NCBI GenBank assembly: GCA_038231135.1
Contig: JBBRLX010000007.1
Coordinates: forward strand, 65,475-129,474
Direction of reading: 5' to 3'
Length of the DNA stretch: 64,000 nucleotides
Source: Candidatus Eiseniibacteriota bacterium
GTDB taxonomy: Bacteria > Eisenbacteria > RBG-16-71-46
Position 1 is the stretch's first letter. Every line of letters starts with the position of its first letter. The notes beneath the pieces are model-generated. The model did no database searches and was not told the origin of the DNA. It saw only the letters and a list, made by a program, of their open reading frames with translations. The position numbers and the translations under genes were made by a program. Positions 40,350 to 56,422 of this stretch are shown piece by piece.

Positions 40350-42663
40350 GCACGGCCTCCCCGGTCAGGAACCGGCCCAGCACCTTCTTCACGCGGGTGC
40401 CGAACCGCACGGTGTACTTGATCTCACCGCCGGCCTCCTCGGCCGCCACCACCACCCCGTCGCCGAACTGCTCGTGGCGCACACGCTGGCCGACGCGCCG
40501 GTCGGCCCGCGCGGCGGCCGACACGCGCAACGGCGTGCCCGGTGTGATCGTGTCGAGATCGTCGTACTCCCCCGCCTCGGCCGGCGCCGCGTCCTCGTCC
40601 CAGCGGCTCTTGTTCTCGCCCCAGCGCTCGCGCATATTCGGGCTCCAGCCGGGCCGCGTCTGGGCGGCATGGCGGGCCGCCGCCGACGGCCGCGGCGCGT
40701 CGAACCGCCGCCGGTCCTCGCGCACCAGCAGCGCTGCGGGGATTTCGTCCACGAATCGCGACACCTGGCCGCCGCGCGCGCCGTCGAACCGGCGGCGGAA
40801 CGCCGCGGCCGTCAGCAACAGCTCGTCCTGCGCGCGCGTGAGCGCCACGTAGAACAGCCGGCGCTCCTCCTCGAGCTGGTCCGCGCGCTCGAGCGACGAG
40901 GCATGAGGCATCAGTCCCTCCTCGAGGCCGATGATCACGACCGCCGGGAACTCGAGACCCTTCGCGTTATGGCCGGTCAGCAGCAGCACGCGGTCGCCGT
41001 TCTCGCCCGCGCGATCGGCGTCGGTGACGAGCGCCGCCTCGGCGAGGAATCCCGGCACCGTGGCGCCGGCTACGCCCGTGAACGTGCCGGCCGCCACCAG
41101 CAGCTCCTCGACGTTCGCCCGGCGTTCGGCCGCGTCCTCGCCGTCCCCCAGCGAATCGAGATAGCGGGTGTGCTCGAGCACTCGCGCCAGCACCCGGTCG
41201 ACCGGGGCGTCGAGCAGCGTGCCCAGTTCGTCGAGCAGCTGGAGCAGCTCGGTCGCGCCCCGCCGCGCCGCGGGGGCGATGCCCTGCTCCGCCACCAGCG
41301 CCCGCAACGCGGACGGCGCGGGCGCGCCGTTCGCCAGGACCCGCTGCTCGACCGCCGCGCGCACCACGCTGCCGAGCCCGCGGCGCGGCGTGTTCCAGAT
41401 CCGCCAGAACGCCGCGGCATCGGCGGGATTCGCCGCCACCCTCAGGTAGGCGATCAGGTCCTTCACCTCGCGCCGCTGGTAGAACGACACGCCGCCCACG
41501 AGTTCGTACGGGATCAGCGAGTGGCGCAGCTCGGTCTCGAGCGCCCGCGACTGCGCGTTCGTGCGGTACAGCACCGCGCAATCCGCGAGTTTCCCGCCGC
41601 GCGCCACGCGCGCGACCAGGAACTCGCGCACCCGGCGCGCCTCGTCCACCTCGTCCGCCGCCAGCACGAACCGCAGCGGCACGCCGGGGCCGCGCTCGCT
41701 CCACAGCGTCTTGCCCTTGCGCGCGCGGTTGTTCGAGATCACGGCGTTCGCCGCGTCGAGGATGCTCGTCGTCGAACGGTAGTTCTGCTCCAGCCGCACC
41801 ACGGCGGCGCCGGCGAACGTGGTCTCGAAGTCGAGCACGTTCCTCAGATCCGCGCCGCGCCAGCCGTAGATCGACTGGTCGTCGTCGCCGACCACGAACA
41901 CCGTGCCGCGATCGCCCACCAGCGCCTGGATCATGCGGAACTGGGCGTGGTTCGTGTCCTGGTATTCGTCGACCAGCACGTGCGAGAACCGCGCGCGGTA
42001 ACGGTCCCCCACGTCGGGATGGGTGCGGAACAACTCGACGGTGCGGGCGATCAGGTCGTCGAAGTCGAACGCGCCGCAGCGGCGCAGCTCCTGGTCGTAC
42101 AGCGTGTAGGCTTCCGCGGTGCGGCGATCCTGCGGCGAGAACGCCGTGCGCGCGAAGTCCTCGGGACCCACGAGCGAGTTCTTCGCGTCGCTGATCGCCG
42201 CCAGCACCGCTCCCGCCCGCCAGGTGCCGTCGGGCCAGCCGAGCCGCCGGGCGATATCCTTGATCAGCGACTCCTGGTCCTCACGATCGTAGATCGCGAA
42301 CGCCGCCGGCACGCCGAGCACGCGCGCCTCGCGCCGCAGGATGCGCACCGCCGTGGCATGGAACGTCCCGACCCACAGCTCCCTGGACACGTCGCCGACG
42401 AGGCTCGCGATCCGGGCGCGCATCTCGCGCGCCGCGCGGTTCGTGAACGTGAACGCCAGGATCGCCGATGGCGCCACGCCGCGATCCAGCAGCCACGCCA
42501 CGCGCGCCGTGAGCACGCGGGTCTTACCGCTCCCCGCCCCCGCGATCACGAGCACCGCCCGCGCCTCGTGCTCGACCGCCGCACGCTGGGCGCTGTTGAG
42601 ACTGTCCAAAAGCTGCAAGGGTACCTCGGGTAGTCGCAGGGGTTCCAAAGGGTTCCCCTGCAA
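40339..42663 (-). CDS. uvrD: ATP-dependent DNA helicase (UvrD/PcrA family, SF1)
   Basis: The product has a Walker A motif (AGAGSGKTRVLTARVA), motifs II-VI (VDEYQDTN ... VGDDDQSIYGWRGA ... GTFH) and a C-terminal Tudor-like domain (GQRVRHEQFGDGVVV). Confidence 0.9.
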   Translation of the reverse strand: MQGNPLEPLRLPEVPLQLLDSLNSAQRAAVEHEARAVLVIAGAGSGKTRVLTARVAWLLDRGVAPSAILAFTFTNRAAREMRARIASLVGDVSRELWVGTFHATAVRILRREARVLGVPAAFAIYDREDQESLIKDIARRLGWPDGTWRAGAVLAAISDAKNSLVGPEDFARTAFSPQDRRTAEAYTLYDQELRRCGAFDFDDLIARTVELFRTHPDVGDRYRARFSHVLVDEYQDTNHAQFRMIQALVGDRGTVFVVGDDDQSIYGWRGADLRNVLDFETTFAGAAVVRLEQNYRSTTSILDAANAVISNNRARKGKTLWSERGPGVPLRFVLAADEVDEARRVREFLVARVARGGKLADCAVLYRTNAQSRALETELRHSLIPYELVGGVSFYQRREVKDLIAYLRVAANPADAAAFWRIWNTPRRGLGSVVRAAVEQRVLANGAPAPSALRALVAEQGIAPAARRGATELLQLLDELGTLLDAPVDRVLARVLEHTRYLDSLGDGEDAAERRANVEELLVAAGTFTGVAGATVPGFLAEAALVTDADRAGENGDRVLLLTGHNAKGLEFPAVVIIGLEEGLMPHASSLERADQLEEERRLFYVALTRAQDELLLTAAAFRRRFDGARGGQVSRFVDEIPAALLVREDRRRFDAPRPSAAARHAAQTRPGWSPNMRERWGENKSRWDEDAAPAEAGEYDDLDTITPGTPLRVSAAARADRRVGQRVRHEQFGDGVVVAAEEAGGEIKYTVRFGTRVKKVLGRFLTGEAVLGS

Positions 42664-42818
42664 TCTAGCGGAATCCCGGGGTTACTTCCATGCAGTGGAG
42701 CTCACCGCGTCGCGGGTCCCGGAGCTTTCGGCCGCAGGTCCCTTTAGGCCGCTGAAAACGGTCGAGTGCAAGGCGGCAAGGAGCGACGAGCGCAGGCGTA
42801 TCGTCAGACACTCCGGGG

Positions 42819-42868
42819 CGAGGAGCGACGCAGCCGCCGCAGCAATCGACGATTCTCAGCAGCCTGCG
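42819..42868. repeat. Copy 2 of the ~50-nt dispersed repeat, directly 3' of the stop of the Omp85-chimera gene
   Basis: The plus strand reads gaggagcgacgcagccgccgCGCAGCAATCGACGATTCTCAGCAGCCTGCG, followed by the CTA stop. Confidence 0.6.
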
Positions 42869-45800
42869 CTAGAACTCCGGACCTACGGACACGTGCCAGC
42901 GGGGGCGGCTGGTGCCGGCCAGGTTGGTGTTCCACCCCGCGTCGACCTTGAGGATCAGGAAGTAGAGCGCCGTGCGGATGCCGGCGCCGAAGCCGAGCTT
43001 CAGGTCGTCGAGACGGCGGCGGCCGTCCTCCACGCTCGACAGCCGCACGCGGTCGGCGGCGTCCCACACGAATCCCGCGTCCGAGAACAGCGCGCCGCGG
43101 AGGTTGAACACTCCGACCGGGATCGGTCCCAGGATGCCGAGCTGCTCGATGAACGGGAATCGCAGTTCGGCATTGACGATCGCCACGCGCGAACCGAGCA
43201 GGTCGAAATCGGGATAGCCGCGCAGCGTCGAATACCCGCCGACCCGGAACGTCTGCCGGTCGGGGCCGTCGCTGCGGCCGGTGAGTACGCGGGTGGCGAA
43301 CGTATAACCCCGCGTGAGGTCCCAGTAGCGCCGCGCGTCGAACGTGACGGTCTGGTACTGCAGCGCGTCGTGGAGCACCGCGAACGCCGGCGCGTAGGTC
43401 AGGTTCCAGCGCTGACCGTTCACGGGGCCGTAGTAGCCGAACAGCGCATTGTCGCCGATCAGCGACAGCGACGGCGACGTGACGGCGCGGTACTGCCGGG
43501 TGGACTTGAAGAAGTTCCCGGCGTCGTCCTCGGCGAAGAACTGCCGGTCGACGAACATCTGGGTGAGGTTGAGCTCCGCGCGCCGGAACCGGTCGAACGG
43601 ATACGACGCCGTGACGAGGCCGCCGAACGTTCGCTCCGAGAACAGCCGCGTGCCGTCGAGCTGTTCGCCGAGCGTCGTCACCTGCGACGAGAAGTAGTCC
43701 TTGAAATGGAACAGCCCGGCGCCGAAGTCGACCCGCCGCTTGAGATAACTGTAGACCACGAGCGCGTTCGTCTCGCTGATCGAGCTCGAGAACAGGTCGG
43801 TCGCGACGTACAGGCTGTGGTCGCCGAGGAAGTCGCTGAACGCGAACTGGGTGCTGCCGACGAAGCCGAACCCGCTGCCGGCGTAGAACCCGCCCCCGGC
43901 GTAGTCCGGCGCCAGCCGCACGTGGTAGCGCGACGGTCGCTGCGCCAGCACCGAGTCCGGCAGCGCAAACGGGCCGCCGTGCTCGACGAGCGCGATGCGC
44001 GGCACGATCGCGGCCACGGTGTCCATCGGCACCGGCAGCCGGGTCTCGCCGGCGAACCGGTCGTCGATGGCGCCCCGGCCGGAGCGCCTGGTCCCGGCGG
44101 GCGGCCCGAGCCCGCCGGTCGCGGGGAACGCGAGCGTCGAATCCTCGTGCGTCACGGTCACGCTGTCGGGCAGCGTGCGCGCGAGCGCCGCCACTCGCGG
44201 CGGCGGCGCGGCCGAGTCGGCGGGCGCGCTCCGCGCGGTCGCCGAATCGAGCACCGCTCCCGGCGAGCGCCGGCGCAGCCGCTCGAACACCGCGTCGAGC
44301 GACAGCGGCTCCCTGACCGCGAACACGTCGAACCCGCCGCGGTTGAACGCCGCGAACACCAGCCGGTCGTTCTGCCGCGACCACGACAGGCTCTGCACGC
44401 CGCCGAGCACGTCGGTGAGCTGCACGTACGAGCGCTCGGCGACGTCGTACAGATAGACATTGGACGTGCCGTCACGGTCGCTGATGAACGCGAGCCGCCG
44501 GCCGTCGGGAGACCACGCGGGCGCGTGGTCGTTGCCGGAGGTGTCGAGCGTGCGGGTGATCGCGCCCGATGCCAGATCCAGGCTGTAGAGCGCGTAGCTG
44601 CCGAAGCCGCCCGCGCGGGCCGCCGGTTCGAGCACGACGGGCGCGAGCCGGTCGGAGGCGAACGTCAGCGTGCGGCCGTCGGGCGTCCACGCCGGCTCCT
44701 TCTCGTCCCAGGTGTCGTTCGTGAGCCGCGTGGCCGCACCCGTCGCGGCGTCCACCAGCCACAGGTCCGACCGGCCGTCCTTCACCCCGGCCACCGCGAT
44801 CGAGTCGCCGTGCGGCGCCCACGCCGGGTAGTACAACGCCTCGCACGGGAGCTGGATGCGCTTGAGCGTGCTGCCGTTGCGCGCCGACACCACGTACAGC
44901 ACGTCGCTGCCGCCGCTCTTCGCGGTGAGCGCGAGCCTCGAGCCATCGGGCGACCAGGTGATCGAGCTGCGGTACGACGGGATCGCCTCGTACTGGTAGT
45001 TGCGCTCGCCGCGGATCACGCGGTGCAGCACCTTGCCGTCGAACGCGGACATCACGTAGATGTCGGTGTACTGGCGGCGGTCCGAGAACCACGCGATGCG
45101 GTCGCCCTGCGGCGAGATCGCCGGCGCGGTGTTGAGCGTGCTCTGATCACGCCGGTGATCGGTGAGCCGCCGAGCGAACTCCTCGGGCGACTGCTTGTGC
45201 GCCACGGTCGGCCAGTAGCGCTTGCGCAGCCAGTTGCGCCACTGTTCGTCGAACTTCGGCACCGACAGTCCGACGCTGGCCTGGAACGCGCGCTCGAAGC
45301 CGTGGTTCTGCCGGATGCGCTTGAGGATATCGCGCAGCCGGTCCTCCCCGTAGCGCTCGACGAGATAGCCGAGCGCCGACTGCCCCTGCTTGTAGACGAT
45401 GTAGCCGCCCGAGTACATGAGCGGCGGCAGGTAGCCCTCGATGATGCCGTCGCGCAGGAACATCTCGGCGTTCGGTTCCATGCCGAGCGACAGGTACTCC
45501 GCCATGCCCTCGGCGAACCACAGCGGCACCGAATAGAAGCTCTGCCGCGCGATCAGCGCCGCCGCCGACCCGCCGTACAGCATGTCGAACATGATGGCAT
45601 GCGTGAGTTCGTGCACCACCACGTGGCGCAGGTCCTCGTAGGAGCCGGTGAACGGCAGCACCACCCGGTTGCGCAGCACCTCGGTGAACCCGCCGGTGCC
45701 GGCGTCGATCAGCTCGGGCGTGACGTTGGTCTGGGAGAACTCGTTGTGGGAGCCATACAGAATGATGGGGACGCGGCGCGACAGCACATGGCCCATGCGC

Positions 45801-46027
45801 ACCGACAGCACGGCGTGCGTCTTCTCGGCAAGGTCGAGCACCCGCATCGCGAGCGAGTCCTCGCCGGCGTAGAAATACACGTCGAAGTGGTCGGATTCGA
45901 TCGAGCGCCAGTCGTGGACGCTGTACTGGACCTTGTTCTGGCCGAAGTACTGGGCGTGAGCGGTCCCGGCGGGAACGAGGGCGAGCAGCGCGAGCAGTGC
46001 GCCCACGGCAATGTGCAGACGATGCAA
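42869..46027 (-). CDS. Outer-membrane Omp85-family (bacterial surface antigen D15) beta-barrel protein with an N-terminal zinc-metallopeptidase-like domain and a TolB-like PD40 beta-propeller; it has no POTRA domains
   Basis: It has a signal peptide (the proposed TTG start gives MHRLHIAVGALLALLALVPAGTAHA, with GGGGTGAG upstream). The N-terminal domain has an HEXXH motif (VVVHELTHAIMFD) and FAEGMAEY. The central region has PD40-type repeats (WSPDGSRLAL, WAPHGDSIAV, WTPDGRTLTF, WSPDGRRLAFISDRDG). The C-terminal ~330 aa aligns to the BamA barrel (RGY ... VNAELRFP ... ALFSDAGFVWD ... GFGAGIRT ... WHVSVGPEF, ending in an aromatic residue). Confidence 0.7.
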   Translation of the reverse strand: MHRLHIAVGALLALLALVPAGTAHAQYFGQNKVQYSVHDWRSIESDHFDVYFYAGEDSLAMRVLDLAEKTHAVLSVRMGHVLSRRVPIILYGSHNEFSQTNVTPELIDAGTGGFTEVLRNRVVLPFTGSYEDLRHVVVHELTHAIMFDMLYGGSAAALIARQSFYSVPLWFAEGMAEYLSLGMEPNAEMFLRDGIIEGYLPPLMYSGGYIVYKQGQSALGYLVERYGEDRLRDILKRIRQNHGFERAFQASVGLSVPKFDEQWRNWLRKRYWPTVAHKQSPEEFARRLTDHRRDQSTLNTAPAISPQGDRIAWFSDRRQYTDIYVMSAFDGKVLHRVIRGERNYQYEAIPSYRSSITWSPDGSRLALTAKSGGSDVLYVVSARNGSTLKRIQLPCEALYYPAWAPHGDSIAVAGVKDGRSDLWLVDAATGAATRLTNDTWDEKEPAWTPDGRTLTFASDRLAPVVLEPAARAGGFGSYALYSLDLASGAITRTLDTSGNDHAPAWSPDGRRLAFISDRDGTSNVYLYDVAERSYVQLTDVLGGVQSLSWSRQNDRLVFAAFNRGGFDVFAVREPLSLDAVFERLRRRSPGAVLDSATARSAPADSAAPPPRVAALARTLPDSVTVTHEDSTLAFPATGGLGPPAGTRRSGRGAIDDRFAGETRLPVPMDTVAAIVPRIALVEHGGPFALPDSVLAQRPSRYHVRLAPDYAGGGFYAGSGFGFVGSTQFAFSDFLGDHSLYVATDLFSSSISETNALVVYSYLKRRVDFGAGLFHFKDYFSSQVTTLGEQLDGTRLFSERTFGGLVTASYPFDRFRRAELNLTQMFVDRQFFAEDDAGNFFKSTRQYRAVTSPSLSLIGDNALFGYYGPVNGQRWNLTYAPAFAVLHDALQYQTVTFDARRYWDLTRGYTFATRVLTGRSDGPDRQTFRVGGYSTLRGYPDFDLLGSRVAIVNAELRFPFIEQLGILGPIPVGVFNLRGALFSDAGFVWDAADRVRLSSVEDGRRRLDDLKLGFGAGIRTALYFLILKVDAGWNTNLAGTSRPRWHVSVGPEF

Positions 46028-46190
46028 GAACTCACCCCTCTTGAGCCCCGGATTCGGGTTCGCCCGGCCGAAGCGCCCACACGATGATACCCCGGAACCG
46101 TCCCGGATTCCCAAACCTGCATCGGCAGTTCCGCCGGCCCCCGTGAGGTCATGAATTGCCCCGGCCGGCACTCCTAACCGGCCTGCCGCC

Positions 46191-49100
46191 TCAGTATTCC
46201 CACCGAGCCTTGAGGTTCACGTTGAAGTCCGGCGGCGACGTGCTGGAGACGTTGGCGGTGCCGGGCCGGTGCTGGGTGATCTCGGTGGTCAGATAGATGA
46301 ACCGGCTCAGCCGGTACTCGGCCTCGAGATCGCGCTCGAGGAACGTCGAGGTGCCGGGCCCGGTCGGGGTCCGCTCGAGCCCCGGCAGGTGCTGCCGGTA
46401 GCGCAGCGCGATCTGGGGGGAGACCTGGGTGCCGGCGGTGAGGATCACGCCGCCCTCCCCGCCGAACAGCCCGCCCCGGTCGCGGTCGATCTGCCACTCG
46501 TTGATGTAGCCGCGGAACGCGCGCGACATCTCCGACGAGAACGTGCGGTTGATCGCGCGCGTGATGTAGTTGTCGAGCGGGTCGCCGAGCGGCACGCCGG
46601 CGGCGCCGGCGGTGAGCCGGCTGAGCGTCAGGTTCTGGAGGATCTCCGCCTGCCCCCAGGCCGCCTCGTCGCTGCTGAGCACGATCTTGGGCTCGTTCGC
46701 GCGGCCGGTGATGTGCACCGTCACCTGCGACTGATGGGTCTGGCCGTTCTCGTACACCGGCACCTGGGTCACCGCCGTCGCGTCCAGCGTCGGGTTCACG
46801 CCGGACACGTTGTCGAACGTCAGGTCAACGTTCTGCACGTCGAACCGGTTGCTGAGGAAGTAGTACTTGCCGCGCAGCGCGTGCATCTCGCCGTAGAGCA
46901 CCAGCGCCTCGGGCCGCTGCTCGACGTCGAGATTCAGGTTGAACTCGATGTCGCCGTCGGGCGGCTGCCAGTGCACGTTGTTGTTCGCGGACAGGTGGAC
47001 GTTGTAGGTCCAGAACAACGGTGCCGCGGTCTGCGCCACCAGATCCTGCTCGCTGACGTTCGCGAAGTCGTACAGGATCACGGCGCGACGCAGCGTGGCG
47101 TTGCCGGTCACGTACGGCAGCCGCTGCCCGCGCACCACCGGGCCGTCGGTGATCTGGAACGCGCCGTCGAACAGCGCGGCGTACAGACCCGGCTCCGTGG
47201 TCGCGATCTCGGTGACGCCGAGCTTGAACTGGTAGCCCTTGAGCCCGCCGTTCGCGAGCTCCACGGTTCCGCTCCCGGTGACGCGGCCGCGATCGCCCTG
47301 CCGCGCCGTCAGAGTGTCCACGGTGATCTTCGCTTCGTCGAGCCGAACGCTCGCGGTGACGTTCTGGAACAGCTCGTCACGGCCGGTCATGCGCACGACG
47401 CCGTCGCTCACCTTGAGCGTGCCGTCCAGGTCCGGGTGCCGCGGTGTGCCCGTCACGCTGGCCCGCAGCTCGAACTTCCCCGCGGCGGTGCCGATCTGCG
47501 GCACCACCAGCCGCGCCATCGACAGGTCGCCGTTCGGGATGTCGATGCGCCACGCCATCGGCGACTCCGGCACCTCGACCGGGCGCCCCATCGCGAGCAC
47601 GAGCGGCATCGCGCCGGACGCCGTCGATTCGCGGCCGCCGCGCTGCATGTGCAGCTCCGGCACCGTGAGCTGCCCGGCGGCGTAGCGGGCATGACCGCGC
47701 ACGTCCTCGATGTCGATCGCCTGCCACGTCAGCTTGCTCGCGTCGAATGTGGCGTCGAGCACCGGCCGCACCGGACTGCCCTCGATGCCGATCCGCCCGC
47801 TCACCGTGCCGCCCCAGTCGTGCGCGGCGGGCACCAGCTGCCGCAGCCGGTCGAGCGGCAGCGCGGCTCCGGTCAGCTCACCGTTCCAGTCCCCCGCGCC
47901 TTCGATCCAGCGCAGGACGCCGGCCGCGGTCAGCGTGTCGGGCCAGGCGTGCGCCAGATGGTCGAACGCCAGCGAACCCGTCACGCTGCCGGCGGCGATC
48001 CGGAACGCGCCGTTGCGCACCAGCACCGCCCCCGGCCGGCCTTCGAGCTCGAACCGCAGCGAGTCGGCGGCGTGACCATCCCAGCCGGGACGGGACACCG
48101 CCGCCGCCATGTTCCAGTGGGGATCGCCGGCGGCCCCGCGCACCTCGAGCGTGGCGTCGGCGGCCCCCGCCAGGTGGACCTCGGGGGGCATGCCGAGCCG
48201 CGACAGATCGAGCCGCTCGGCCCGCGCCTGCCAGTCATAGCTGCCGCCCGGCACCGCCCAGCGGCCGGTGATGGTGACCGTGGCCAGGCTGTCACGCGCG
48301 ACCAGGCGGTCGAACGTGACGCCGCGCGCGTCACCGGCGAGCGTCACCGGCGCCTCCGCCCGCCAGTCGAACTGCGAGCTGCGCAGCCGCGCGCGATCCA
48401 GCGCCAGCTGCCATGCGCCGGCGTTCCAGTTCGACCGCCCGGCCATCGTCACCAGCGTGTCGCCCGCGAACGCCGACAGATCCTCGAGCGCGATCGTCTG
48501 GTTGCCGAGCAGGAACGGCGTCGCGACGCTGTCGAAGTGGAGGCCGAGGAACGTGACGTTGCCGAGCCGCGCGCGGGCGGCGAGGTCGGGGGCGGGCAAC
48601 AGCGCCCCCGACGCGTCGTCGAGCGCCCAGCGCGCCGCCTGCATCCCGAGCCAGCTCGTGCCGGTGCCGGTGAGGTTGCCGGTGACGAGCAGCGCCCCCG
48701 CCTTGCCCTCCACGGTGCCCTCGCCGTGGCCGAGCATTCCCTTGATGCCGCTGGCGCGGCCGTCGGGCCACTCCTCGAGCGGCAGGTTGTCGACGCGGTA
48801 GCTGCCGGTCCAGCCCTGCTTCGTGGTCATGGCCCGCAGCAGCATCGTGCCGCCGCGCCGCACCACGTTTACGGCGAAGCTGTCGGGGGCCGCGTTCGGG
48901 AACTCGACGTTCACCGTGCCGCCGTCCACGCGCCAGCCCTGCAGCTCGGAGGTGGTCAGCGTCGCGACGAGATTCGCGGTCTGCGCATGGCTGTGGGTAT
49001 CGACGGCGTAGCGGAACGTGCCGGCCACGACGCCCTTCGGCCAGCCGGTGATGCCGATCGCGCCCCAGCGGCTGGGATCGGCGGTCTCGACCGCGCCGCC

Positions 49101-50285
49101 GATGTTCCAGCCGGCCCTGGACCATTGGAGATCGCCCGCGAGATTGCCCGCCGCCGACACCAGGTGCAGCGGCTCGAGCTTCACCACCCCGTGATCCCAC
49201 CGCGCCACCCCGGAGGCCTGGGCCGGCAGGTCCTTCCACGTTGCGGAGCTCGTGAACTGCGCCGTCCACACCCGCGAGCCTGAGGCGGTGATCGAGCCGC
49301 GCGCCTCGCCCGGCACGTCGAGCGTGTGGTTGTCGGTGACCTCGGACAGCCAGCGCCACGACAGCCGCGCGACCTCCAGATCCACGTGCCGGATCCGCGT
49401 GGAGTCGGCATCGAGCCATTCGGCGACGCCCTTGAGCTCGAGATCGTCGGTATGCAGGCGGTCGAGCCGGATGCGGACGGTGTCGCCCTTCTCGACCGAG
49501 CCCTTGAGCTCGAGGTGCCGGGTCCGGAACGGACCCTGGGCCCAGCGCAGGTGGCGCACGACGCCGCGGGTGCTGGCGCCGATCGACACGCCGGCGTCCA
49601 GGTCCATGTCGCTCACCGGGTCGATCGCGGCGGCGATCGCCACCGAACCGTGCAGCACGCGCAGGTTGACGTCGAGCGCCGTGCTGCCGCCGGTGGCGCT
49701 GCCGCTCGAGCGCCACACCGGCGCCCGCAACCGCCCGTCCTTGCCCTTCGAGATCCGGATCACCGGCGACTCGATGACCACGTCGATCGTACGCCGGTCG
49801 CGACGCAGCCATTGCAGCGGCGAGTAGTTGAGCTGGATCCACGGCGCCTCGAGCAGCGCCGGCGTCTCGCCGTCGGTGAAGTACACCCGGGGCTTGATCA
49901 GCCGCACCCGGTCGAACGGATTGCCGCTGATGTCGTGGATCTCGACCTGCACGTCGCTGCGCTGCGCGAGTGCGCCGTTGATCACCAGCGTGAGCTCCTT
50001 CGCCACCAGCTCGGTGCGCCGCGCGAAGTACAGCAAGGCACTGACGATCGCGATCACCACCAGCCCCACCAGGATCAGCGCGACGAGCCCGATCAGCTTG
50101 CGCACCGTCCAGCGCACCTGCTTGGGCACATGCTCGACCACTTCCTCGACCGCGTGCCCCAGCTCCGCGACCTCGTGACGCAACTCCTCGACAATCCCCT
50201 GCGGCTCAGGCGGCGGCTCCGGCGCACCTCCGCCGGATCCCAATTCCGGGTCGCGCGGAACGAGCGGATCTTCCGGCGGAGTCAT
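46191..50285 (-). CDS. tamB: Translocation and assembly module protein TamB (AsmA-like / DUF490 family)
   Basis: The ORF is 1364 aa with an N-terminal TM anchor (LIGLVALILVGLVVIAIVSALLYF), a long beta-rich body and a DUF490-like C-terminus (GEMHALRGKYYFLSNRFDVQNVDLTF ... NLKARWEY). Confidence 0.8.
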   Translation of the reverse strand: MTPPEDPLVPRDPELGSGGGAPEPPPEPQGIVEELRHEVAELGHAVEEVVEHVPKQVRWTVRKLIGLVALILVGLVVIAIVSALLYFARRTELVAKELTLVINGALAQRSDVQVEIHDISGNPFDRVRLIKPRVYFTDGETPALLEAPWIQLNYSPLQWLRRDRRTIDVVIESPVIRISKGKDGRLRAPVWRSSGSATGGSTALDVNLRVLHGSVAIAAAIDPVSDMDLDAGVSIGASTRGVVRHLRWAQGPFRTRHLELKGSVEKGDTVRIRLDRLHTDDLELKGVAEWLDADSTRIRHVDLEVARLSWRWLSEVTDNHTLDVPGEARGSITASGSRVWTAQFTSSATWKDLPAQASGVARWDHGVVKLEPLHLVSAAGNLAGDLQWSRAGWNIGGAVETADPSRWGAIGITGWPKGVVAGTFRYAVDTHSHAQTANLVATLTTSELQGWRVDGGTVNVEFPNAAPDSFAVNVVRRGGTMLLRAMTTKQGWTGSYRVDNLPLEEWPDGRASGIKGMLGHGEGTVEGKAGALLVTGNLTGTGTSWLGMQAARWALDDASGALLPAPDLAARARLGNVTFLGLHFDSVATPFLLGNQTIALEDLSAFAGDTLVTMAGRSNWNAGAWQLALDRARLRSSQFDWRAEAPVTLAGDARGVTFDRLVARDSLATVTITGRWAVPGGSYDWQARAERLDLSRLGMPPEVHLAGAADATLEVRGAAGDPHWNMAAAVSRPGWDGHAADSLRFELEGRPGAVLVRNGAFRIAAGSVTGSLAFDHLAHAWPDTLTAAGVLRWIEGAGDWNGELTGAALPLDRLRQLVPAAHDWGGTVSGRIGIEGSPVRPVLDATFDASKLTWQAIDIEDVRGHARYAAGQLTVPELHMQRGGRESTASGAMPLVLAMGRPVEVPESPMAWRIDIPNGDLSMARLVVPQIGTAAGKFELRASVTGTPRHPDLDGTLKVSDGVVRMTGRDELFQNVTASVRLDEAKITVDTLTARQGDRGRVTGSGTVELANGGLKGYQFKLGVTEIATTEPGLYAALFDGAFQITDGPVVRGQRLPYVTGNATLRRAVILYDFANVSEQDLVAQTAAPLFWTYNVHLSANNNVHWQPPDGDIEFNLNLDVEQRPEALVLYGEMHALRGKYYFLSNRFDVQNVDLTFDNVSGVNPTLDATAVTQVPVYENGQTHQSQVTVHITGRANEPKIVLSSDEAAWGQAEILQNLTLSRLTAGAAGVPLGDPLDNYITRAINRTFSSEMSRAFRGYINEWQIDRDRGGLFGGEGGVILTAGTQVSPQIALRYRQHLPGLERTPTGPGTSTFLERDLEAEYRLSRFIYLTTEITQHRPGTANVSSTSPPDFNVNLKARWEY

Positions 50286-50353
50286 GAGCCGATCACCAGC
50301 CCGCGCAGCCGCGGCGCGGGAGCGCAGCCGACGAAACAGGCAACCACGTGCCG

Positions 50354-50504
50354 CGATGGCGTGCGGGGTGAGGTTCCGGAGGCGGGGACCGAGCGCAGCG
50401 CGCGAGTGCAGGGATGCGCGGAGCGCTGCGCGAGTAGCGAGGACCCGCCAGGAGGGCGGGTCCGAAGCGTCCCCGCCGTAGGAACCTCACCCCGCACGCC
50501 ATCG
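50354..50504. repeat. A 151-bp element with 35-bp terminal inverted repeats (32/35 matching) enclosing an 81-bp spacer that has inner hairpins, in the bamA-tamB intergenic region
   Basis: The left arm is cgatggcgtgcggggtgaggttccggaggcgggga (50354-50388). The right arm is tccccgccgtaggaacctcaccccgcacgccatcg (50470-50504), which is its reverse complement with 3 mismatches. An inner 8-bp-stem hairpin, gacccgcc-aggag-ggcgggtc, lies at 50442-50462. A 14-bp palindrome, TCACCGCGCGGTGA, lies at 50548-50561. The two short opposite-strand MACGVRF ORFs in the track mirror this repeat. Confidence 0.7.
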
Positions 50505-50577
50505 CAGCGAAGAACCCGTCCCCGCCGGGGGAATCTCACCCCGGTCGTCACCGCGCGGTGAAGGCGCAGAACACGCA

Positions 50578-52485
50578 TCAGAACGCCGGCCCAATCGCAA
50601 ACTGAAAAATTCCCCGCTGCCGCTTCCCCGTCTCGTCCGGCCGCGCCCACCAGGTGAAATCCACCCGCAGCGGCCCGAACGGCAGCTGCAGCCGCGGTCC
50701 GAAGCCGAACACGAACCGCACGTCGTTCGGCGTCATGCGGCTCGAGCTGATCTCGGGCACGAACCGGCCGCGCTTCACGGCGTCGAACCCCGTCCATACG
50801 TTGCCAGCGTCCACGTACAGCTCGAGCCCGAGCGGCCCCAGCACGTCGACGCGCAGTTCCACGTTGCCCTGCAGCAGCACGAGGCCGCCGTTCGCCGGCA
50901 GCTCGCGTTCGTCGTAGCCACGCAGCGAGTTTACGCCACCGATCTTGAACCGGTCGAACACCGGCACGCGCGCCACCCCGGGATCGGTGGTGGAGTCGCT
51001 GGAGAACAACACGTCCTTGCCGAACGGCCGGATGACGCCGCCGCGGGCGTGGGTCGCGAGCAGCCAGCCCGGACGCAGCGGCGTATACCACGACGATTCG
51101 AGGTGCTGCTTGGTGAAGCTCGACGTGCCCTGCAACGGGCCGCCCGCGACCTCGGACGTGAACGCCTGGTACGACCCCCGCGTCATGAGCACCGGATGAT
51201 CGCGCGTGTCGCGGGCGACCTCGAGCTGCAGCCGGTGCGTGGTATAGGACGGCTCGAGCAGCGAATCGCCGACCGTGGGGTCCGTCACCACCTGGCTCTG
51301 CGTCACCCACGCGTTGTCCTGGGTGAGCGCCAGCGTGGCGTAGCGGCCGAGCTGGCGCGACACCTGGAAGCTGACGCCGCGCGACTGGCTCTCGATCAGC
51401 CGGGGGGGGCTGGTGGGGCGGTCGTGCTGGTTCACGTAGTACAGCGTGAGCAGCCCGCGGGTACGCGTGGCGAACAGCCACGGCTCGAGCAACGTGGTCT
51501 CGATCCGGCTCAGGAGGAACCGCGCCTGGCCATCGAGCGCGAGCCGGCCGTCCACCGTGCCCTGGCGGCCGCTGCCGAGCAGGCTGCGGTGGCCCCATTC
51601 GCCGGTCGCCAGCACCCGTTCGCTGGTGCCGCTGCCGATGCCGGCGTCCACCCAGCGATGGCGGCGCTCGTGGAGGCCCAGGTCGAACTCCACGCGGGCC
51701 GCGGTCGAATCCATGAGCGGCGTCATCTGCACCTGGTCGAACATGCCGGTCTCGTACAGGTGCTCGACCGATTGCTGCACGCGGGTGGAGCGGTACACCG
51801 CGTCCGGCTTGATCAAGAGCTCGCGCCGCACGAAGTGCTCGTTGACCGACAGCTTGTCCAGGTCCGGGATGCGGACCTCGCCGAACCGGAACCGCTGGCC
51901 CTCGGTCACGTCGTAGCGCACGTTCATCGAGAAGTCGTGGCGCTCGGTGACGGCGTGGACCGAGGGGAAGTACCCGCGGTCCTTGTACGCCTCGGCGATC
52001 TTCGCGGTGTCGGCCACCAGGAAGTACGGGTTGAACGCCTTGTGCCGTTTCGCGAACAACAGGCGGCGCAGTGCGTCGCCCTGGATCGCCGTCACGCCCG
52101 TGAGGTCGATGCGGCCGATGTGGGTCTGGCGGCCCTCGATGATCTTGAACCGCACGATCACGGTGCCGGCATCGTGCCCGGGCACGAGCTCGTAGCCGGC
52201 GGCGACGTCGAGGTAGCCGTGCTGGTGGTAGACGTCCTCGATCGCCTGGACGTCGGCGCCGAGAAAGTCCATCCGCAGCACCGGCATCTGGCGCGACAGG
52301 ATGTGCCCGCTCGCCCGCGTCTTGAGCGCCTTCTTGAGGTCCTTCGCGTTCACGTGCCTGCGGCCTTCGAACCGAACCCCCGCGACGCTGGTGAGTTCGT
52401 TCGGCAGGCTGGTGGCGGCGCGCGCCAGGGGTGCGGGACCGAGCAGCATCACCACGAACGCAAACCGGGCCAGTGCCGTACGCAC
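50578..52485 (-). CDS. bamA: Omp85-family outer-membrane protein assembly factor (BamA/TamA-like) with POTRA domains
   Basis: The product has a signal peptide (ALARFAFVVMLLGPAPLARA), POTRA-like repeats, and an Omp85 barrel (FKIGGVNSLRGYDERELPANGG ... VELRVDV ... GNVWTGF ... IFQFAIGPAF). It sits in an rseP-bamA order, with tamB immediately downstream. The start is uncertain; I chose the GTG at 52485 because it avoids overlap with rseP. The track ORF start at 52698 would overlap rseP. Confidence 0.7.
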   Translation of the reverse strand: MRTALARFAFVVMLLGPAPLARAATSLPNELTSVAGVRFEGRRHVNAKDLKKALKTRASGHILSRQMPVLRMDFLGADVQAIEDVYHQHGYLDVAAGYELVPGHDAGTVIVRFKIIEGRQTHIGRIDLTGVTAIQGDALRRLLFAKRHKAFNPYFLVADTAKIAEAYKDRGYFPSVHAVTERHDFSMNVRYDVTEGQRFRFGEVRIPDLDKLSVNEHFVRRELLIKPDAVYRSTRVQQSVEHLYETGMFDQVQMTPLMDSTAARVEFDLGLHERRHRWVDAGIGSGTSERVLATGEWGHRSLLGSGRQGTVDGRLALDGQARFLLSRIETTLLEPWLFATRTRGLLTLYYVNQHDRPTSPPRLIESQSRGVSFQVSRQLGRYATLALTQDNAWVTQSQVVTDPTVGDSLLEPSYTTHRLQLEVARDTRDHPVLMTRGSYQAFTSEVAGGPLQGTSSFTKQHLESSWYTPLRPGWLLATHARGGVIRPFGKDVLFSSDSTTDPGVARVPVFDRFKIGGVNSLRGYDERELPANGGLVLLQGNVELRVDVLGPLGLELYVDAGNVWTGFDAVKRGRFVPEISSSRMTPNDVRFVFGFGPRLQLPFGPLRVDFTWWARPDETGKRQRGIFQFAIGPAF

Positions 52486-52604
52486 GGGCCCCAGTCTGCC
52501 GGCGACGAGCGTCCGCTTCCGGATTCGCGCCCTCGCCCATTCCAGTGAATCGTGTTGCGACGCTCCGGGTCCGCTATGGCGGAGTCGGGGCAACCGTGTT
52601 CTCC

Positions 52605-54002
52605 TCAGGGAGCGGAGGCAGGGGAGCGATGGGGGGCGGCGGAAGTCGCCGACGTCGACGTGCGACCGAGTGCGCGCTGGCGCTGCACCACGCGCCACGG
52701 ATCATTGGCCAGAATCAACACCAGCAGCGAGCCCATCATCACGAGACCCACCTGCTGGAACCGGGTGTAGGCCAGGGCGGAAATCTTCTGGCGGCGGATC
52801 GCCTCGATCACCGCGAGCAGGATGTGGCCGCCGTCGAGCACTGGCAGCGGCATCAGGTTGAACGCCATGATCGCGATGTTGATCATCGCGAGGAACTGCA
52901 GGAAGAAATCGGGACCGCGCTTCGCCTGTTCGCTCGCCACCTGGGCGATGAACAACGGTCCCCCGACGTACTCCCGGTAGTAGAGCGGGCGCGACACGGT
53001 GAGCCACATGCCGGCGTAGACGTTGCGGATCACTTCGCCGGTCGCGTGCCAGCCCATGTCGATCGACTCCAGGATGCCGGAGCGCTCGATGAACTTGCCC
53101 TGCCGCGGGGCTTCGATGCCAATCCGCGCGTTGTCGCTCTGCGCGCCCGTGTTCATCGGCACGATATCGACGTTAAACGTGCGTCCACCACGATCGACCG
53201 TCAAGTGCACGGTGCGATCGACATTGCCCCTCAAGGACAGCGGCAGATCGTCCCAGGTCGTGATTCGTTTGCCGTTCACCGCCAGAATGCGATCACCCTC
53301 CTTGATGCCCACCTTGTACGCCGGCATACCCGTTATGACGGCGCCGACGATCGGCAACGTTGGAGGCAGTCGAAAATTCGAGAACACGGGCTCGCGCCGG
53401 TCCGCCGGCACCGTGATCGTCAGGTGGCTGCTCAGGACGCCCACATCGGGCCGCTCGATGGCCAGCACGACCGCACGATCCTTCGGAACCCGGGAATATG
53501 CGTAGAACATCTGCTCCCAGGTCGACACCGGACTGCCGTTCAACGCCACCAGCCGATCCCCAGTACGAAAGCCGGCCTGATACGCGACGCTGGTGTCCGG
53601 CGTGGCCCCGAGCAAGTTCGGGTAGTCGGGACGGGATATCCCGATCATGCCGATCGTGCACAGGATGATCAGCGCGGTGAGGAGATTGCAGGCGGGGCCC
53701 GCGGCCGCGATCAGGATGCGGCCGTACCAGGGGTGCGACAGGAACTCCTCGTCCGAGTTCGGCATGTCGCCTTCGGGGCTCGGGCTGTCGCCCGCCATCG
53801 CGACGTAGCCGCCGAACGGGATCCACGCCAGGCGATACTCGGTGCCGCCCCGGGTGAACGAGAACATCGCGGGGCCGAATCCGAGCGAAAACCGGATCAC
53901 CCGGACACCCCGCCATTTGGCCATCAGGAAATGGCCGAGCTCATGGACAAATATGACCAATCCGAGCACCAGAATGCCCGGCAACACGAGATTCCAAGAC
54001 AC
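52605..54002 (-). CDS. rseP: RIP (site-2) zinc metalloprotease RseP, M50 family with PDZ domains
   Basis: The product has an HEXXH motif in TM1 (FVHELGHFLMA), PDZ domains and an LDG motif (LMPLPVLDGGHIL). The proposed GTG start at 54002 has AAGGA 7 nt upstream. The track 'M' at 54032 is a TTG codon. Confidence 0.8.
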   Translation of the reverse strand: MSWNLVLPGILVLGLVIFVHELGHFLMAKWRGVRVIRFSLGFGPAMFSFTRGGTEYRLAWIPFGGYVAMAGDSPSPEGDMPNSDEEFLSHPWYGRILIAAAGPACNLLTALIILCTIGMIGISRPDYPNLLGATPDTSVAYQAGFRTGDRLVALNGSPVSTWEQMFYAYSRVPKDRAVVLAIERPDVGVLSSHLTITVPADRREPVFSNFRLPPTLPIVGAVITGMPAYKVGIKEGDRILAVNGKRITTWDDLPLSLRGNVDRTVHLTVDRGGRTFNVDIVPMNTGAQSDNARIGIEAPRQGKFIERSGILESIDMGWHATGEVIRNVYAGMWLTVSRPLYYREYVGGPLFIAQVASEQAKRGPDFFLQFLAMINIAIMAFNLMPLPVLDGGHILLAVIEAIRRQKISALAYTRFQQVGLVMMGSLLVLILANDPWRVVQRQRALGRTSTSATSAAPHRSPASAP

Positions 54003-54222
54003 GGTCAAATCCTTATGGGCTAAGGTGTTCAACGCAGGCTACTGCCCGGGTTCCGAGCGGTCAAGCAGCGCCTCGAAGGGAATCGATACGGCAATAGTCC
54101 AATGACTAGGCAAGAGCCGGACCGCCGGCCGTAACCGCCCCGGTGAGTCGTACACCGTGACCCCGGCGGCATTCGCCTGCACCGGGTTGGATTCCCCCAA
54201 CCGGCGATTCGGCTCGCACGAT

Positions 54223-56417: not shown

Positions 56418-56422
56418 CGGAC

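What the first reader, a model, noticed from the sequence alone, without database searches (positions are those of the whole stretch)
42869..46027. An Omp85 beta-barrel joined to a metallopeptidase-like domain and a TolB-type propeller instead of POTRA domains
The C-terminal ~330 aa aligns block by block with the BamA/Omp85 barrel (VNAELRFP, ALFSDAGFVWD, GFGAGIRT...WHVSVGPEF, with an aromatic residue at the end). The N-terminal ~700 aa have no POTRA repeats. In their place are a signal peptide, a domain with an HEXXH motif (VVVHELTHAIMFD, then FAEGMAEY, resembling the predicted Peptidase_MA-like fold), and at least four PD40/TolB-like WxPDG repeats. Omp85 proteins normally receive substrates through POTRA domains. 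A periplasmic protease-like domain and a beta-propeller on an Omp85 barrel suggest a different substrate-recognition or processing mechanism. The gene lies directly downstream of tamB and a POTRA-type Omp85, so the locus holds two different Omp85 paralogs bracketing TamB.
Basis: partly seen in the sequence, partly recalled or inferred. Interest (0 to 1): 0.8.

Follow-up and report, generated by a model that had tools for sequence, protein, structure and literature searches.

The report
Omp85 barrel with protease and propeller
This is a real single gene for an outer-membrane barrel protein that carries a zinc-protease-like domain and a TolB-type propeller instead of the usual POTRA domains; the architecture was catalogued in 2014 as the 'WD40-like Omp85' subfamily, is widespread in one large bacterial group, and has no experimentally known function.

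Summary
The gene lies on the minus strand at 42869-46027 (1052 aa). It is one uninterrupted ORF with a TTG start, a Shine-Dalgarno-like sequence and a signal peptide. Pfam places Peptidase_MA_2 (74-268), PD40 repeats and Omp85 (763-1052) above their gathering cut-offs. An AlphaFold2 model (pLDDT 84, pTM 0.81) shows four parts: a gluzincin domain, a six-bladed TolB-type propeller, a disordered linker, and a 16-strand BamA/TamA-type barrel. No POTRA domain is present. The fusion is not an artefact, because full-length relatives occur in at least 558 species genomes. The 80 best loci span many phyla of the FCB group (Fibrobacterota-Chlorobiota-Bacteroidota). H139, H143 and E173 are invariant, and E140 is conserved in at least 90% of diverse members. 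The Omp85 lid-lock residues are also invariant or nearly so. The architecture is not new: Heinz & Lithgow (2014) defined it as the 'WD40-like' Omp85 subfamily, and a 2025 paper calls similar proteins 'OMP-TolB-like'. No function has been shown. tamB linkage is lineage-specific, found in about a third of loci. Other lineages place the gene next to murA, lpxH-like, mlaF-like or housekeeping genes. My best inference is a periplasm-facing, outer-membrane-tethered zinc peptidase acting in envelope maintenance. Verdict: a new member of a known, uncharacterised kind, of moderate interest.

The parts
42869..46027 (-). Complete CDS, 1052 aa plus stop: the WD40-like/TolB-like Omp85 protein
   Evidence: Single ORF. 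Exact product P0001 is in public databases. Coordinates verified.
45953..46027 (-). TTG start and Sec signal peptide (residues 1-25, ...TAHA|Q)
   Evidence: Sequence read. A Shine-Dalgarno-like AAGAGGGG lies upstream. The cleavage site is inferred from the AxA pattern, not predicted by a tool.
45923..45946 (-). Near-invariant motif FG[KQR]NK[VI]QY at the mature N-terminus (residues 28-35); role unexplained
   Evidence: Present in 156 of 170 family members, about 2 residues after the predicted cleavage site. Invariant in alignment A2. Low-confidence coil in both models.
45158..45910 (-). Gluzincin (clan MA) metallopeptidase-like domain, residues ~40-290
   Evidence: Pfam Peptidase_MA_2, 44.2 bits. 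The N-domain model (pLDDT 80) matches M9 collagenase and M1 aminopeptidase catalytic domains, with TM-score up to 0.61 and probability 1.00.
45599..45613 (-). HELTH = HEXXH zinc-binding/catalytic motif (H139, E140, H143)
   Evidence: H139 and H143 are invariant and E140 is conserved in at least 90% of 42 members at 29-60% identity. HExxH is present in 129 of 133 diverse full-length members.
45494..45526 (-). PLWFAEGMAEY helix with the putative third zinc ligand E173
   Evidence: W170, E173, G174 and E177 are invariant. The helix aligns with the W-x-EG-x-AEY segment of M9 collagenases, at marginal E-values of 0.13-0.19.
44303..45175 (-). Six-bladed TolB-type (PD40) beta-propeller, residues ~285-575
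43958..44230 (-). Ala/Pro/Gly-rich disordered linker, residues ~600-690
   Evidence: pLDDT is about 30 for residues 618-685. Linker length varies from 13 to 210 aa across 134 members. Composition is given.
42872..43927 (-). 16-strand Omp85-type beta-barrel, residues ~701-1052, ending in Phe
43211..43231 (-). Loop-6 STLRGYP, the Omp85 (V/L)RG(F/Y) lid-lock motif
   Evidence: R936 and G937 are invariant. The segment aligns with GGVNSLRGY of the upstream POTRA-Omp85.
43064..43093 (-). Strand-13 ALFSDAGFVW, the Omp85 FxDxG motif
   Evidence: D983 is invariant in all alignments. F981 is invariant in A3 and conserved in at least 90% elsewhere. G985 is conserved in at least 90%. The segment aligns with YVDAGNVW of the upstream Omp85.
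46191..50285 (-). tamB (1364 aa), directly upstream with 163 bp of intergenic DNA
   Evidence: PF04357 TamB, 107 bits. No terminator-like site on the gene's own (-) strand, and none in the tamB-target intergenic region.
50578..52698 (-). POTRA-containing Omp85 (BamA-like; ORF up to 706 aa, true start probably internal)
   Evidence: PF01103 129 bits and POTRA 76 bits in three stretches. BamA model TIGR03303 scores 201 bits, below its 297-bit cut-off.
52605..54032 (-). rseP (site-2 M50 protease with PDZ domains), upstream of the POTRA-Omp85
   Evidence: TIGR00054 RseP scores 267 bits, above its 147.55 cut-off. Peptidase_M50 scores 188 bits.

Best explanation
The gene encodes a member of the catalogued but uncharacterised 'WD40-like' (TolB-like) Omp85 subfamily. 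SHOWN: the mature protein has four parts. They are a gluzincin-fold domain with a conserved HExxH...E zinc site, a six-bladed TolB-type propeller, a variable disordered linker, and a 16-strand BamA/TamA-type barrel. The barrel keeps the loop-6 RG / FxDxG lid-lock residues and a C-terminal aromatic residue. There is no POTRA domain. The family is a widely conserved chromosomal gene of the FCB group. INFERRED: the barrel is inserted by BAM and acts mainly as an outer-membrane anchor and docking module. Both ends of an even-stranded barrel face the periplasm, so the peptidase-propeller module is periplasmic, as was shown experimentally for the enzyme domain of the Omp85 protein PlpD. The module is an active zinc peptidase. 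Its propeller binds or filters unfolded polypeptide substrates, as propellers do in tricorn and S9 peptidases. It works at the inner face of the outer membrane in envelope maintenance, meaning processing or quality control of outer-membrane or periplasmic proteins. That would make it a covalently tethered functional analogue of BAM-associated proteases such as BepA. In this lineage it may be co-expressed with the BamA-like/TamB module.
For: Architecture. A real, conserved single gene: the top 120 homologues are full length at 60-78% identity; 150 cluster representatives score E<1e-131; at least 558 species genomes encode a relative. Catalytic competence: H139, H143 and E173 are invariant and E140 is conserved in at least 90% of members; the fold matches active M9 and M1 enzymes. 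Omp85 hallmarks R936, G937 and D983 are invariant; F981, G985 and the C-terminal F1052 are conserved in at least 90% of members, and the barrel is homologous to that of the neighbouring POTRA-Omp85. Flexible tether: low pLDDT and a linker of 13-210 aa. Envelope theme in neighbourhoods: rseP, POTRA-Omp85 and tamB here and in Eisenbacteria and Krumholzibacteria; hldE/rfaE, tamB and rnr in Ignavibacteria; murA in Zixibacteria; lpxH-like and mlaF-like genes in Marinimicrobia and Calditrichota. Periplasmic precedent: the PlpD patatin domain is periplasmic (PMC11116518). Family identity: PMC4104836 Tables S2 and S3.
Against: No member has been studied experimentally. Topology, zinc binding, activity and substrates are therefore all unproven. 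I could not read the model coordinates, so whether the active site faces the propeller channel is untested. Neighbourhoods also hold plain housekeeping genes (uvrD, gatCAB, rnr, rplI, smc, radA), so the envelope association is only suggestive. Four of 133 diverse members lack HExxH; P0126, for example, has HQLTH. One Eisenbacteria locus has a paralogue with PD40 and Omp85 hits but no peptidase hit. Some copies may therefore work without catalysis. The strongly conserved lid-lock and the invariant N-terminal motif suggest the barrel and N-terminus do more than anchor the protein.
Confidence: 0.55

Rival explanations
1. An OMP-assembly scaffold, the 'BamA plus BamB fusion' idea of Heinz & Lithgow. 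The barrel is itself an active insertase or translocase that cooperates with TamB and BamA. The propeller takes the place of POTRA/BamB as the platform for substrates and partners, and the peptidase trims or clears clients.
For: The lid-lock motifs typical of functional Omp85 insertases are invariant or nearly so. The last barrel strand is short (1043-1048) against a long first strand. tamB is adjacent here and in several lineages. The authors' own speculation is quoted.
Confidence: 0.2
2. An outer-membrane-anchored TolB analogue or relic. The propeller binds Pal/OmpA-like peptidoglycan-associated proteins. The invariant N-terminal peptide is a TolA-box/TonB-box-like epitope that couples the protein to an inner-membrane motor, so the protein acts in outer-membrane tethering or division rather than mainly in proteolysis.
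For: The propeller is closest to TolB by sequence and by fold. The FG[KQR]NK[VI]QY motif sits at the mature N-terminus, where TolB carries its TolA box (the TolB comparison is from my own knowledge), and it is predicted to be unstructured. A 2025 study proposes OMP-TolB-like fusions as relatives of TolB's ancestor (PMC12204202).
Against: The TolB equivalog model scores only 142 bits against a 343-bit cut-off. TolB's N-terminal alpha/beta domain is replaced here by a peptidase with an intact zinc site. No tolQRA/pal or exbBD/tonB genes recur in the 80 neighbourhoods, by unsupervised clustering of neighbouring ORFs. I made no test of binding.
Confidence: 0.15
3. A type-V-like surface protease. 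The barrel exports the N-terminal module, or the protein is otherwise surface-exposed, to degrade external proteins for nutrition or interactions.
For: The closest structural relatives of the N-domain are secreted collagenases. Heinz & Lithgow raised export as one option for enzyme-bearing Omp85 proteins. Bacteroidota BAM has large extracellular parts, including a six-bladed propeller lipoprotein.
Against: The N-terminus of an Omp85 barrel is periplasmic. The only tested enzyme-Omp85 fusion, PlpD, keeps its enzyme in the periplasm. A folded ~570-residue peptidase-propeller module is unlikely to pass a lid-locked barrel. There is no lipobox or surface-export signal, and the signal peptide has an AxA|Q site. 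The gene sits among core housekeeping and envelope genes, not nutrient-uptake loci, apart from two TonB-dependent receptor genes in one Latescibacteria locus.
Confidence: 0.05
4. An assembly or annotation artefact: two adjacent genes fused by a missed stop or frameshift.
For: None found. High-GC DNA does produce long spurious ORFs, including a 1248-aa antisense ORF across this gene.
Against: The ORF is continuous. Hundreds of independent genomes and metagenomes encode the same full-length architecture. The whole chain gives a confident model.
Confidence: 0.01

Closest known systems
'WD40-like' Omp85 subfamily (Heinz & Lithgow 2014, Front Microbiol 5:370, PMC4104836)
   Same: The same three-part architecture. 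PF07676 repeats lie N-terminal to PF01103 with no POTRA (their Table S2). Their Phyre2 hits are to BamA/TamA barrels (4K3B, 4C00), TolB (2IVZ, 2W8B) and gluzincin peptidases (1Z5H F3, 4AR1 collagenase H, and others) (Table S3). My fold searches returned the same template families.
   Different: Nothing substantive. This is an Eisenbacteria member, a phylum not sampled in 2014. The new points here are conservation of the zinc site, the invariant N-terminal motif, the variable tether and the lineage-specific tamB linkage.
'OMP-TolB-like' / 'FhaC-TolB-like' clade (Mol Biol Evol 2025, PMC12204202)
   Same: An outer-membrane barrel fused to a periplasmic six-bladed TolB-like propeller plus an adjacent alpha/beta domain. 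Members are often auto-annotated as TolB or Tol components, as here.
BamA / TamA / TamL (POTRA-bearing Omp85 insertases)
   Same: A 16-strand barrel, the loop-6 RG and strand-13 FxDxG lid-lock, and a C-terminal aromatic residue.
   Different: No POTRA domain. Scores fall far below the equivalog cut-offs: BamA 38 against 297, TamL 27 against 400. The protein carries a peptidase and a propeller on a disordered tether.
PlpD / patatin-like Omp85 (formerly 'type Vd secretion')
   Same: An enzyme domain fused N-terminally to an Omp85 barrel. For PlpD the enzyme was shown to stay in the periplasm (PMC11116518). This is the best experimental precedent for the topology.
   Different: PlpD has a patatin lipase plus one POTRA domain and forms homodimers. 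Here there is a zinc peptidase plus a propeller and no POTRA.
TolB (Tol-Pal system)
   Different: The protein lacks TolB's N-terminal domain, is membrane-anchored by a barrel, scores below the TolB cut-off and has no tol-pal gene context.
Propeller-gated peptidases (tricorn protease with factor F3; S9 prolyl oligopeptidase/DPP-IV) and the BAM-associated protease BepA: functional analogies only, from my own knowledge
   Same: Each combines a peptidase with a beta-propeller or repeat domain that restricts or recruits unfolded substrates. BepA is a periplasmic zinc protease that works at BAM. Homologues carry precomputed Tricorn_N, Tricorn_2nd and DPPIV_N Pfam hits.
   Different: The catalytic families differ (S41/S9 serine peptidases, M48 for BepA). 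None is fused to an Omp85 barrel. I could not test the geometry of active site against propeller.

Membership tests
Omp85 superfamily (PF01103) | Significant match to the Omp85/Bac_surface_Ag barrel model | tested here: met
   PF01103 scores 49.3 bits against a 24-bit cut-off, over residues 763-1052 and model positions 33-325 of 325.
Omp85 superfamily (PF01103) | 16-stranded C-terminal beta-barrel | tested here: met
Omp85 superfamily (PF01103) | Loop-6 (V/I/L)RG(F/Y) and strand-13 FxDxG lid-lock motifs | tested here: met
   LRGY at 935-938 and FSDAG at 981-985. R936, G937 and D983 are invariant; F981 and G985 are conserved in at least 90% of members.
Omp85 superfamily (PF01103) | [quoted passage not shown] | tested here: not met
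   No POTRA hit at E<=1. No beta-alpha-alpha-beta-beta unit lies between propeller and barrel in the model. This is the feature that sets the non-POTRA subfamilies apart.
WD40-like Omp85 subfamily (Heinz & Lithgow 2014) | PD40 (PF07676) repeats N-terminal to PF01103, without POTRA | tested here: met
   compared with their Table S2 domain profiles.
WD40-like Omp85 subfamily (Heinz & Lithgow 2014) | TolB-like propeller plus an aminopeptidase/collagenase-like domain by fold recognition | tested here: met
WD40-like Omp85 subfamily (Heinz & Lithgow 2014) | Sequence clustering with their listed members (e.g. H1XQ58, D0MEQ5) | not tested
Membership rests on identical architecture and on related taxa (Calditrichota, Rhodothermales and Chloroherpeton relatives among the loci).
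Clan MA gluzincin metallopeptidase (Pfam Peptidase_MA_2) | HEXXH motif with a downstream Glu as third zinc ligand | tested here: met
   HELTH at 139-143 and E173 in PLWFAEG. H139, H143 and E173 are invariant, and E140 is conserved in at least 90% of members. Assigning E173 as a ligand is by analogy with M9/M1 enzymes (marginal E-value).
Clan MA gluzincin metallopeptidase (Pfam Peptidase_MA_2) | Thermolysin-like catalytic fold | tested here: met
   PF13485 scores 44.2 bits against a 32.4-bit cut-off. Foldseek probability is 1.00 to 8jt1, 4ar8, 7z5u, ERAP1 and IRAP, with TM-score (normalised to the query) 0.5-0.61.
Clan MA gluzincin metallopeptidase (Pfam Peptidase_MA_2) | Zinc-dependent peptidase activity | not testable with these tools
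   Requires biochemistry.
TolB (TIGR02800) | Full-length equivalog match, N-terminal TolA-binding domain, and tol-pal operon context | tested here: not met
   142.5 bits against a 343-bit cut-off, matching the propeller only. The N-domain is a peptidase. The neighbours are tamB, a POTRA-Omp85, rseP and uvrD.
BamA (TIGR03303) / TamA / TamL | Equivalog-level match with POTRA domains | tested here: not met
   BamA scores 38 against 297 and TamL 27 against 400. No POTRA is present.
Patatin-like Omp85 (PlpD, 'type Vd') | Patatin domain plus one POTRA domain before the barrel | tested here: not met
   No patatin or POTRA hit.

The most novel reading that the evidence does not exclude
The family is an energy-coupled or partner-coupled outer-membrane protease, a 'proto-TolB'. 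The invariant, unstructured FG[KQR]NK[VI]QY peptide at the mature N-terminus would be a beta-augmentation epitope, like the TolA box of TolB or the TonB box of TonB-dependent transporters. It would dock onto an inner-membrane-anchored transducer or onto TamB. This would link proton-motive-force-driven or bridge-like machinery to proteolysis and protein handling at an Omp85 barrel. Such a protein would be a living intermediate in the origin of the Tol-Pal system and a new working mode for the Omp85 superfamily.
Probability: 0.1. Interest if true: 0.8.

Novelty: new member of a known kind. Interest (0 to 1): 0.35.

Why it matters
Every characterised Omp85 protein assembles or translocates other proteins through POTRA domains. 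The WD40-like subfamily replaces POTRA with an apparently active zinc peptidase and a TolB-type propeller. It is present in at least 558 species genomes, and the 80 best loci span many FCB phyla. The 2024 PlpD study (PMC11116518) singles it out as an uncharacterised, 'intriguing target'. Working out its function would show what an Omp85 barrel does when it is not fed by POTRA domains. It could also reveal a tethered envelope quality-control protease in phyla that lack the proteobacterial BAM accessory set, and it bears on the proposed origin of TolB. For this genome scan the practical message is narrower. The finding is real and correctly read, but it is not a discovery of a new architecture. 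It adds an Eisenbacteria member, plus family-wide observations on the zinc site, the N-terminal motif, the tether and gene context.

Tried and rejected
1. + strand reading of the given coordinates: a stop-free shadow frame, rejected.
2. ORF 50282-52540(-) as the POTRA-Omp85: no Pfam or NCBIfam hits, so it is a shadow frame. The real gene is 50578-52698(-).
3. Single-sequence phmmer of the N-domain and of the barrel against the PDB: only chance-level hits. A profile of the N-domain gave only marginal collagenase hits. Fold searches were needed.
4. Literature searches for 'Omp85 + PD40 + peptidase' and 'Peptidase_MA_2' found nothing relevant. No experimental study of the subfamily was found.
5. 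The 42-sequence alignment A1 was too diverse for the search for related loci. It was replaced by the 23-sequence alignment A2.
6. A MAFFT-based iterative neighbour search timed out. It was replaced by phmmer/hmmsearch iteration.
7. The sigma-70 promoter and terminator scan of 42400-46400 found no promoter and one terminator-like site on the wrong strand. This is uninformative for an FCB-type organism.
8. The AFDB50 fold library was unavailable, so UniProt names and organisms of full-length structural neighbours were not obtained.
9. Model coordinates are not exposed, so I could not measure the geometry of active site against propeller or of N-module against barrel.
10. Rfam scan of the window at gathering threshold: no hits.
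11. A motif search for further PD40 proteins in the window found none.
12. The assembly-artefact hypothesis was rejected.

Full report
OBSERVATION. The coordinates are right, but the gene is on the minus strand. The + strand translation of 42869-46027 has no stops yet reads as R/A/G-rich nonsense, a shadow frame typical of DNA at about 72% GC. The minus strand gives one uninterrupted ORF. The ORF could start at GTG 46171, but TTG 46027 is the better start. It has a Shine-Dalgarno-like AAGAGGGGTGAG just upstream and is followed at once by a Sec signal peptide (MHRLHIAVGALLALLALVPAGTAHA|QYFGQNKVQY). The identical 1052-aa product is already on record from a 138.8-kb contig as P0001.

DOMAINS. Three Pfam families score above their gathering cut-offs:
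- PD40: 105 bits (cut-off 20.9).
- Omp85 PF01103: 49.3 bits (cut-off 24), residues 763-1052.
- Peptidase_MA_2: 44.2 bits (cut-off 32.4), residues 74-268.

NCBIfam gives only partial, sub-threshold matches to TolB, BamA, an Omp85 family model and TamL. No POTRA match appears even at E<=1.

STRUCTURE MODELS. A full-length AlphaFold2 model was built on 76 homologues at 33-79% identity. It is confident, with mean pLDDT 84.3 and pTM 0.81. From N- to C-terminus it shows:
- an alpha/beta domain at about 40-290, with the HExxH motif on a long helix;
- 24 strands forming a six-bladed propeller at about 285-575;
- two short helices;
- a disordered Ala/Pro/Gly-rich linker at 618-685 (pLDDT about 30);
- a barrel with 16 main strands at 705-1048.

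FOLD SEARCHES.
- N-domain: a separate model (pLDDT 80) matches the catalytic domains of M9 collagenases (TM-score 0.61) and M1 aminopeptidases, including ERAP1, IRAP and tricorn-interacting factor F3, all at probability 1.00.

By sequence alone, only the propeller finds solved relatives. A profile of the N-domain aligns only marginally with collagenases, at the W-x-EG-x-AEY helix.

NOT AN ARTEFACT, AND WIDESPREAD.
- The word-indexed search returned 120 full-length relatives at 60-78% identity. Sources name them only 'Tol biopolymer transport system component', 'BamA/TamA family outer membrane protein', 'PD40 domain-containing protein' or 'hypothetical', mostly from Candidatus Eisenbacteria MAGs.
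- The exhaustive search of 50%-identity cluster representatives gave 150 listed hits, all below E=1e-131. Most are 900-1190 aa.
- The 80 best loci come from Eisenbacteria, Zixibacteria, Ignavibacteria, Krumholzibacteria, Latescibacteria, Marinimicrobia, Calditrichota, Fibrobacterota, Gemmatimonadota, Bacteroidota (including Rhodothermales, Cytophagia and Chitinophagales), Chloroherpeton relatives and Kapaibacteria. This is essentially the FCB group.

The window itself is most likely from an Eisenbacteria genome. Its best genomic relatives, at 62-67% identity, are Eisenbacteria MAGs with the same gene order.

CONSERVATION.
- Zinc site: across 42 members at 29-60% identity, H139, H143, W170, E173, G174 and E177 are invariant, and E140 is conserved in at least 90%. 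HExxH occurs in 129 of 133 diverse full-length members. The site therefore looks functional. Rare copies have lost it; P0126, for example, has HQLTH.
- Barrel: R936 and G937 (loop-6 LRGY) and D983 (strand 13) are invariant. F981, G985 and the C-terminal F1052 are conserved in at least 90% of members. This region aligns with the same motifs of the neighbouring POTRA-Omp85 at 33% identity over 113 aa.
- Linker: its length ranges from 13 to 210 aa, so it is a flexible tether and not a hidden domain.
- Unexpected motif: FG[KQR]NK[VI]QY is nearly invariant (156 of 170 members). It sits about two residues after the predicted signal-peptide cleavage site and is modelled as low-confidence coil.

GENE CONTEXT. 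On the minus strand the window reads glycosyltransferase genes, rseP (52605-54032), POTRA-Omp85 (50578-52698), tamB (46191-50285), the target, uvrD/pcrA, gatA, gatB, purD. BamA-TamB operons without TamA are known in several phyla (PMC4494059). The survey of the 80 loci gave these patterns:
- tamB directly upstream: Eisenbacteria, Krumholzibacteria, UBP1 and one unclassified lineage.
- tamB 2.1-2.4 kb upstream, with RNase R in between and hldE/rfaE genes before it: 17 Ignavibacteria-type loci.
- No tamB within 10 kb: Zixibacteria (murA directly upstream), Gemmatimonadota (rplI, smc), Marinimicrobia and Calditrichota (lpxH-like, mlaF-like), Fibrobacterota, Latescibacteria, Rhodothermales and Chloroherpeton relatives.

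Of 61 loci with at least 4 kb of upstream sequence, about 20-24 have tamB within 3 kb. The linkage is therefore lineage-specific. The wider pattern is a core chromosomal gene that often sits beside envelope-biogenesis genes, but also beside plain housekeeping genes.

WHAT IS KNOWN. Heinz & Lithgow (2014, PMC4104836) divided the Omp85/TpsB superfamily into ten subfamilies. One is 'WD40-like': PF07676 repeats plus PF01103 without POTRA. Its members gave Phyre2 hits to BamA/TamA, TolB and aminopeptidases or collagenase. They speculated that it is a BamA-BamB-like fusion. A 2024 paper summarises the subfamily as having 'divergent WD40 and peptidase domains'. Hanson et al. 2024 list it among uncharacterised, 'intriguing' Omp85 families. 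They also show that the enzyme domain of the patatin-Omp85 protein PlpD stays in the periplasm. A 2025 study describes 'OMP-TolB-like' fusions as possible relatives of TolB's ancestor. I found no experimental work on any member.

INTERPRETATION. What is shown is the identity and architecture, which I hold at about 0.95 confidence for membership in the WD40-like Omp85 subfamily. What is inferred is the mechanism:
- The barrel is assembled by BAM and anchors the protein.
- The N-terminal module faces the periplasm, from even-stranded barrel topology and the PlpD precedent.
- The gluzincin is an active zinc peptidase.
- The TolB-type propeller recruits or filters unfolded polypeptides.
- The flexible tether lets the module patrol the inner face of the outer membrane, in envelope protein processing or quality control.

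I put this mechanism at roughly 0.4-0.5 and the combined statement at 0.55. The rivals are an insertase or scaffold working with TamB/BamA (0.2), an anchored TolB-like tethering or force-coupled protein (0.15), a surface-exposed protease (0.05) and an artefact (0.01). The most novel reading still open is that the invariant N-terminal peptide is a TolA/TonB-box-like docking epitope. That would make this a partner-coupled Omp85 protease and a living TolB precursor (about 0.1).

VERDICT. The finding is a new member of a known but functionally uncharacterised kind. Interest is moderate (0.35). A specialist would recognise the architecture, but its function remains an open question that can be tested.

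Noticed in passing
window 45923-45946 (-), residues 28-35: The motif FG[KQR]NK[VI]QY is nearly invariant at the very N-terminus of the mature protein (156 of 170 family members). It lies outside the Pfam peptidase match and is modelled as low-confidence coil. It may be a docking epitope or a latency segment. Its role is unexplained.
   Followed up: partly
window 45950-45952 (-), residue 26; family-wide: The first mature residue after the predicted AxA cleavage site is Gln here and in 67 of 156 members across several FCB phyla. This recalls the 'Q-rule' (N-terminal pyroglutamate) described for Bacteroidetes signal-peptidase-I substrates (PMC5837995, seen).
   Followed up: no
L022:2849-5704 (+), an Eisenbacteria MAG: A second paralogue of 952 aa, with PD40 and Omp85 hits but no Peptidase_MA_2 hit at E<=1e-5, lies about 3.8 kb upstream of the family member in that locus. 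Some genomes therefore carry tandem copies, one possibly without the peptidase.
   Followed up: partly
protein P0126: This family member is about 46-48% identical to the target. It has HQLTH instead of HExxH and a degenerate N-terminal motif (PGQTGVE), so it looks like a catalytically dead variant.
   Followed up: no
L015, L016, L024, L032, L038, L039, L042, L049, L053, L054, L057, L058, L061 and others, upstream 10 kb: Ignavibacteria-type genomes share a conserved block: hldE/rfaE kinase, rfaE adenylyltransferase, tamB (~1500 aa), RNase R, then the target. LPS-heptose genes and tamB are thus linked to the family, with an RNA-decay gene in between.
   Followed up: partly
window 50578-54032 (-): The order rseP, POTRA-Omp85, tamB is a BamA-type/TamB arrangement without TamA. 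The POTRA-Omp85 scores below the BamA equivalog cut-off (201 against 297 bits). Its longest ORF overlaps the end of rseP by 94 nt, so its true start is probably internal.
   Followed up: partly
window 42341-46087 (+) and 50282-52540 (-): Very long shadow ORFs (1248 aa antisense to the target; 752 aa out of frame over the POTRA-Omp85) have no family hits. They are a reminder that ORF length alone is not evidence of a gene in this ~72% GC DNA.
   Followed up: yes
window 25444-25537 (-): ARAGORN reports a 'tRNA-???' with a four-base anticodon (gctg). Rfam finds no tRNA or any other RNA family in the window at gathering threshold. It is probably a false positive or an unusual tRNA.
   Followed up: partly
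window 54029-55468 (-) and 56371-57768 (-): ORFs of 479 and 465 aa in the glycosyltransferase region upstream of rseP have no Pfam hits, and the first also has no NCBIfam hit. They may be shadow frames or unannotated envelope genes.
   Followed up: no
L025:2533-9655 (+), a Latescibacteria MAG: Two TonB-dependent receptor genes with CarboxypepD_reg and Plug domains lie directly upstream of the family member on the same strand. This is the only locus seen with a nutrient-uptake-type context.
   Followed up: no
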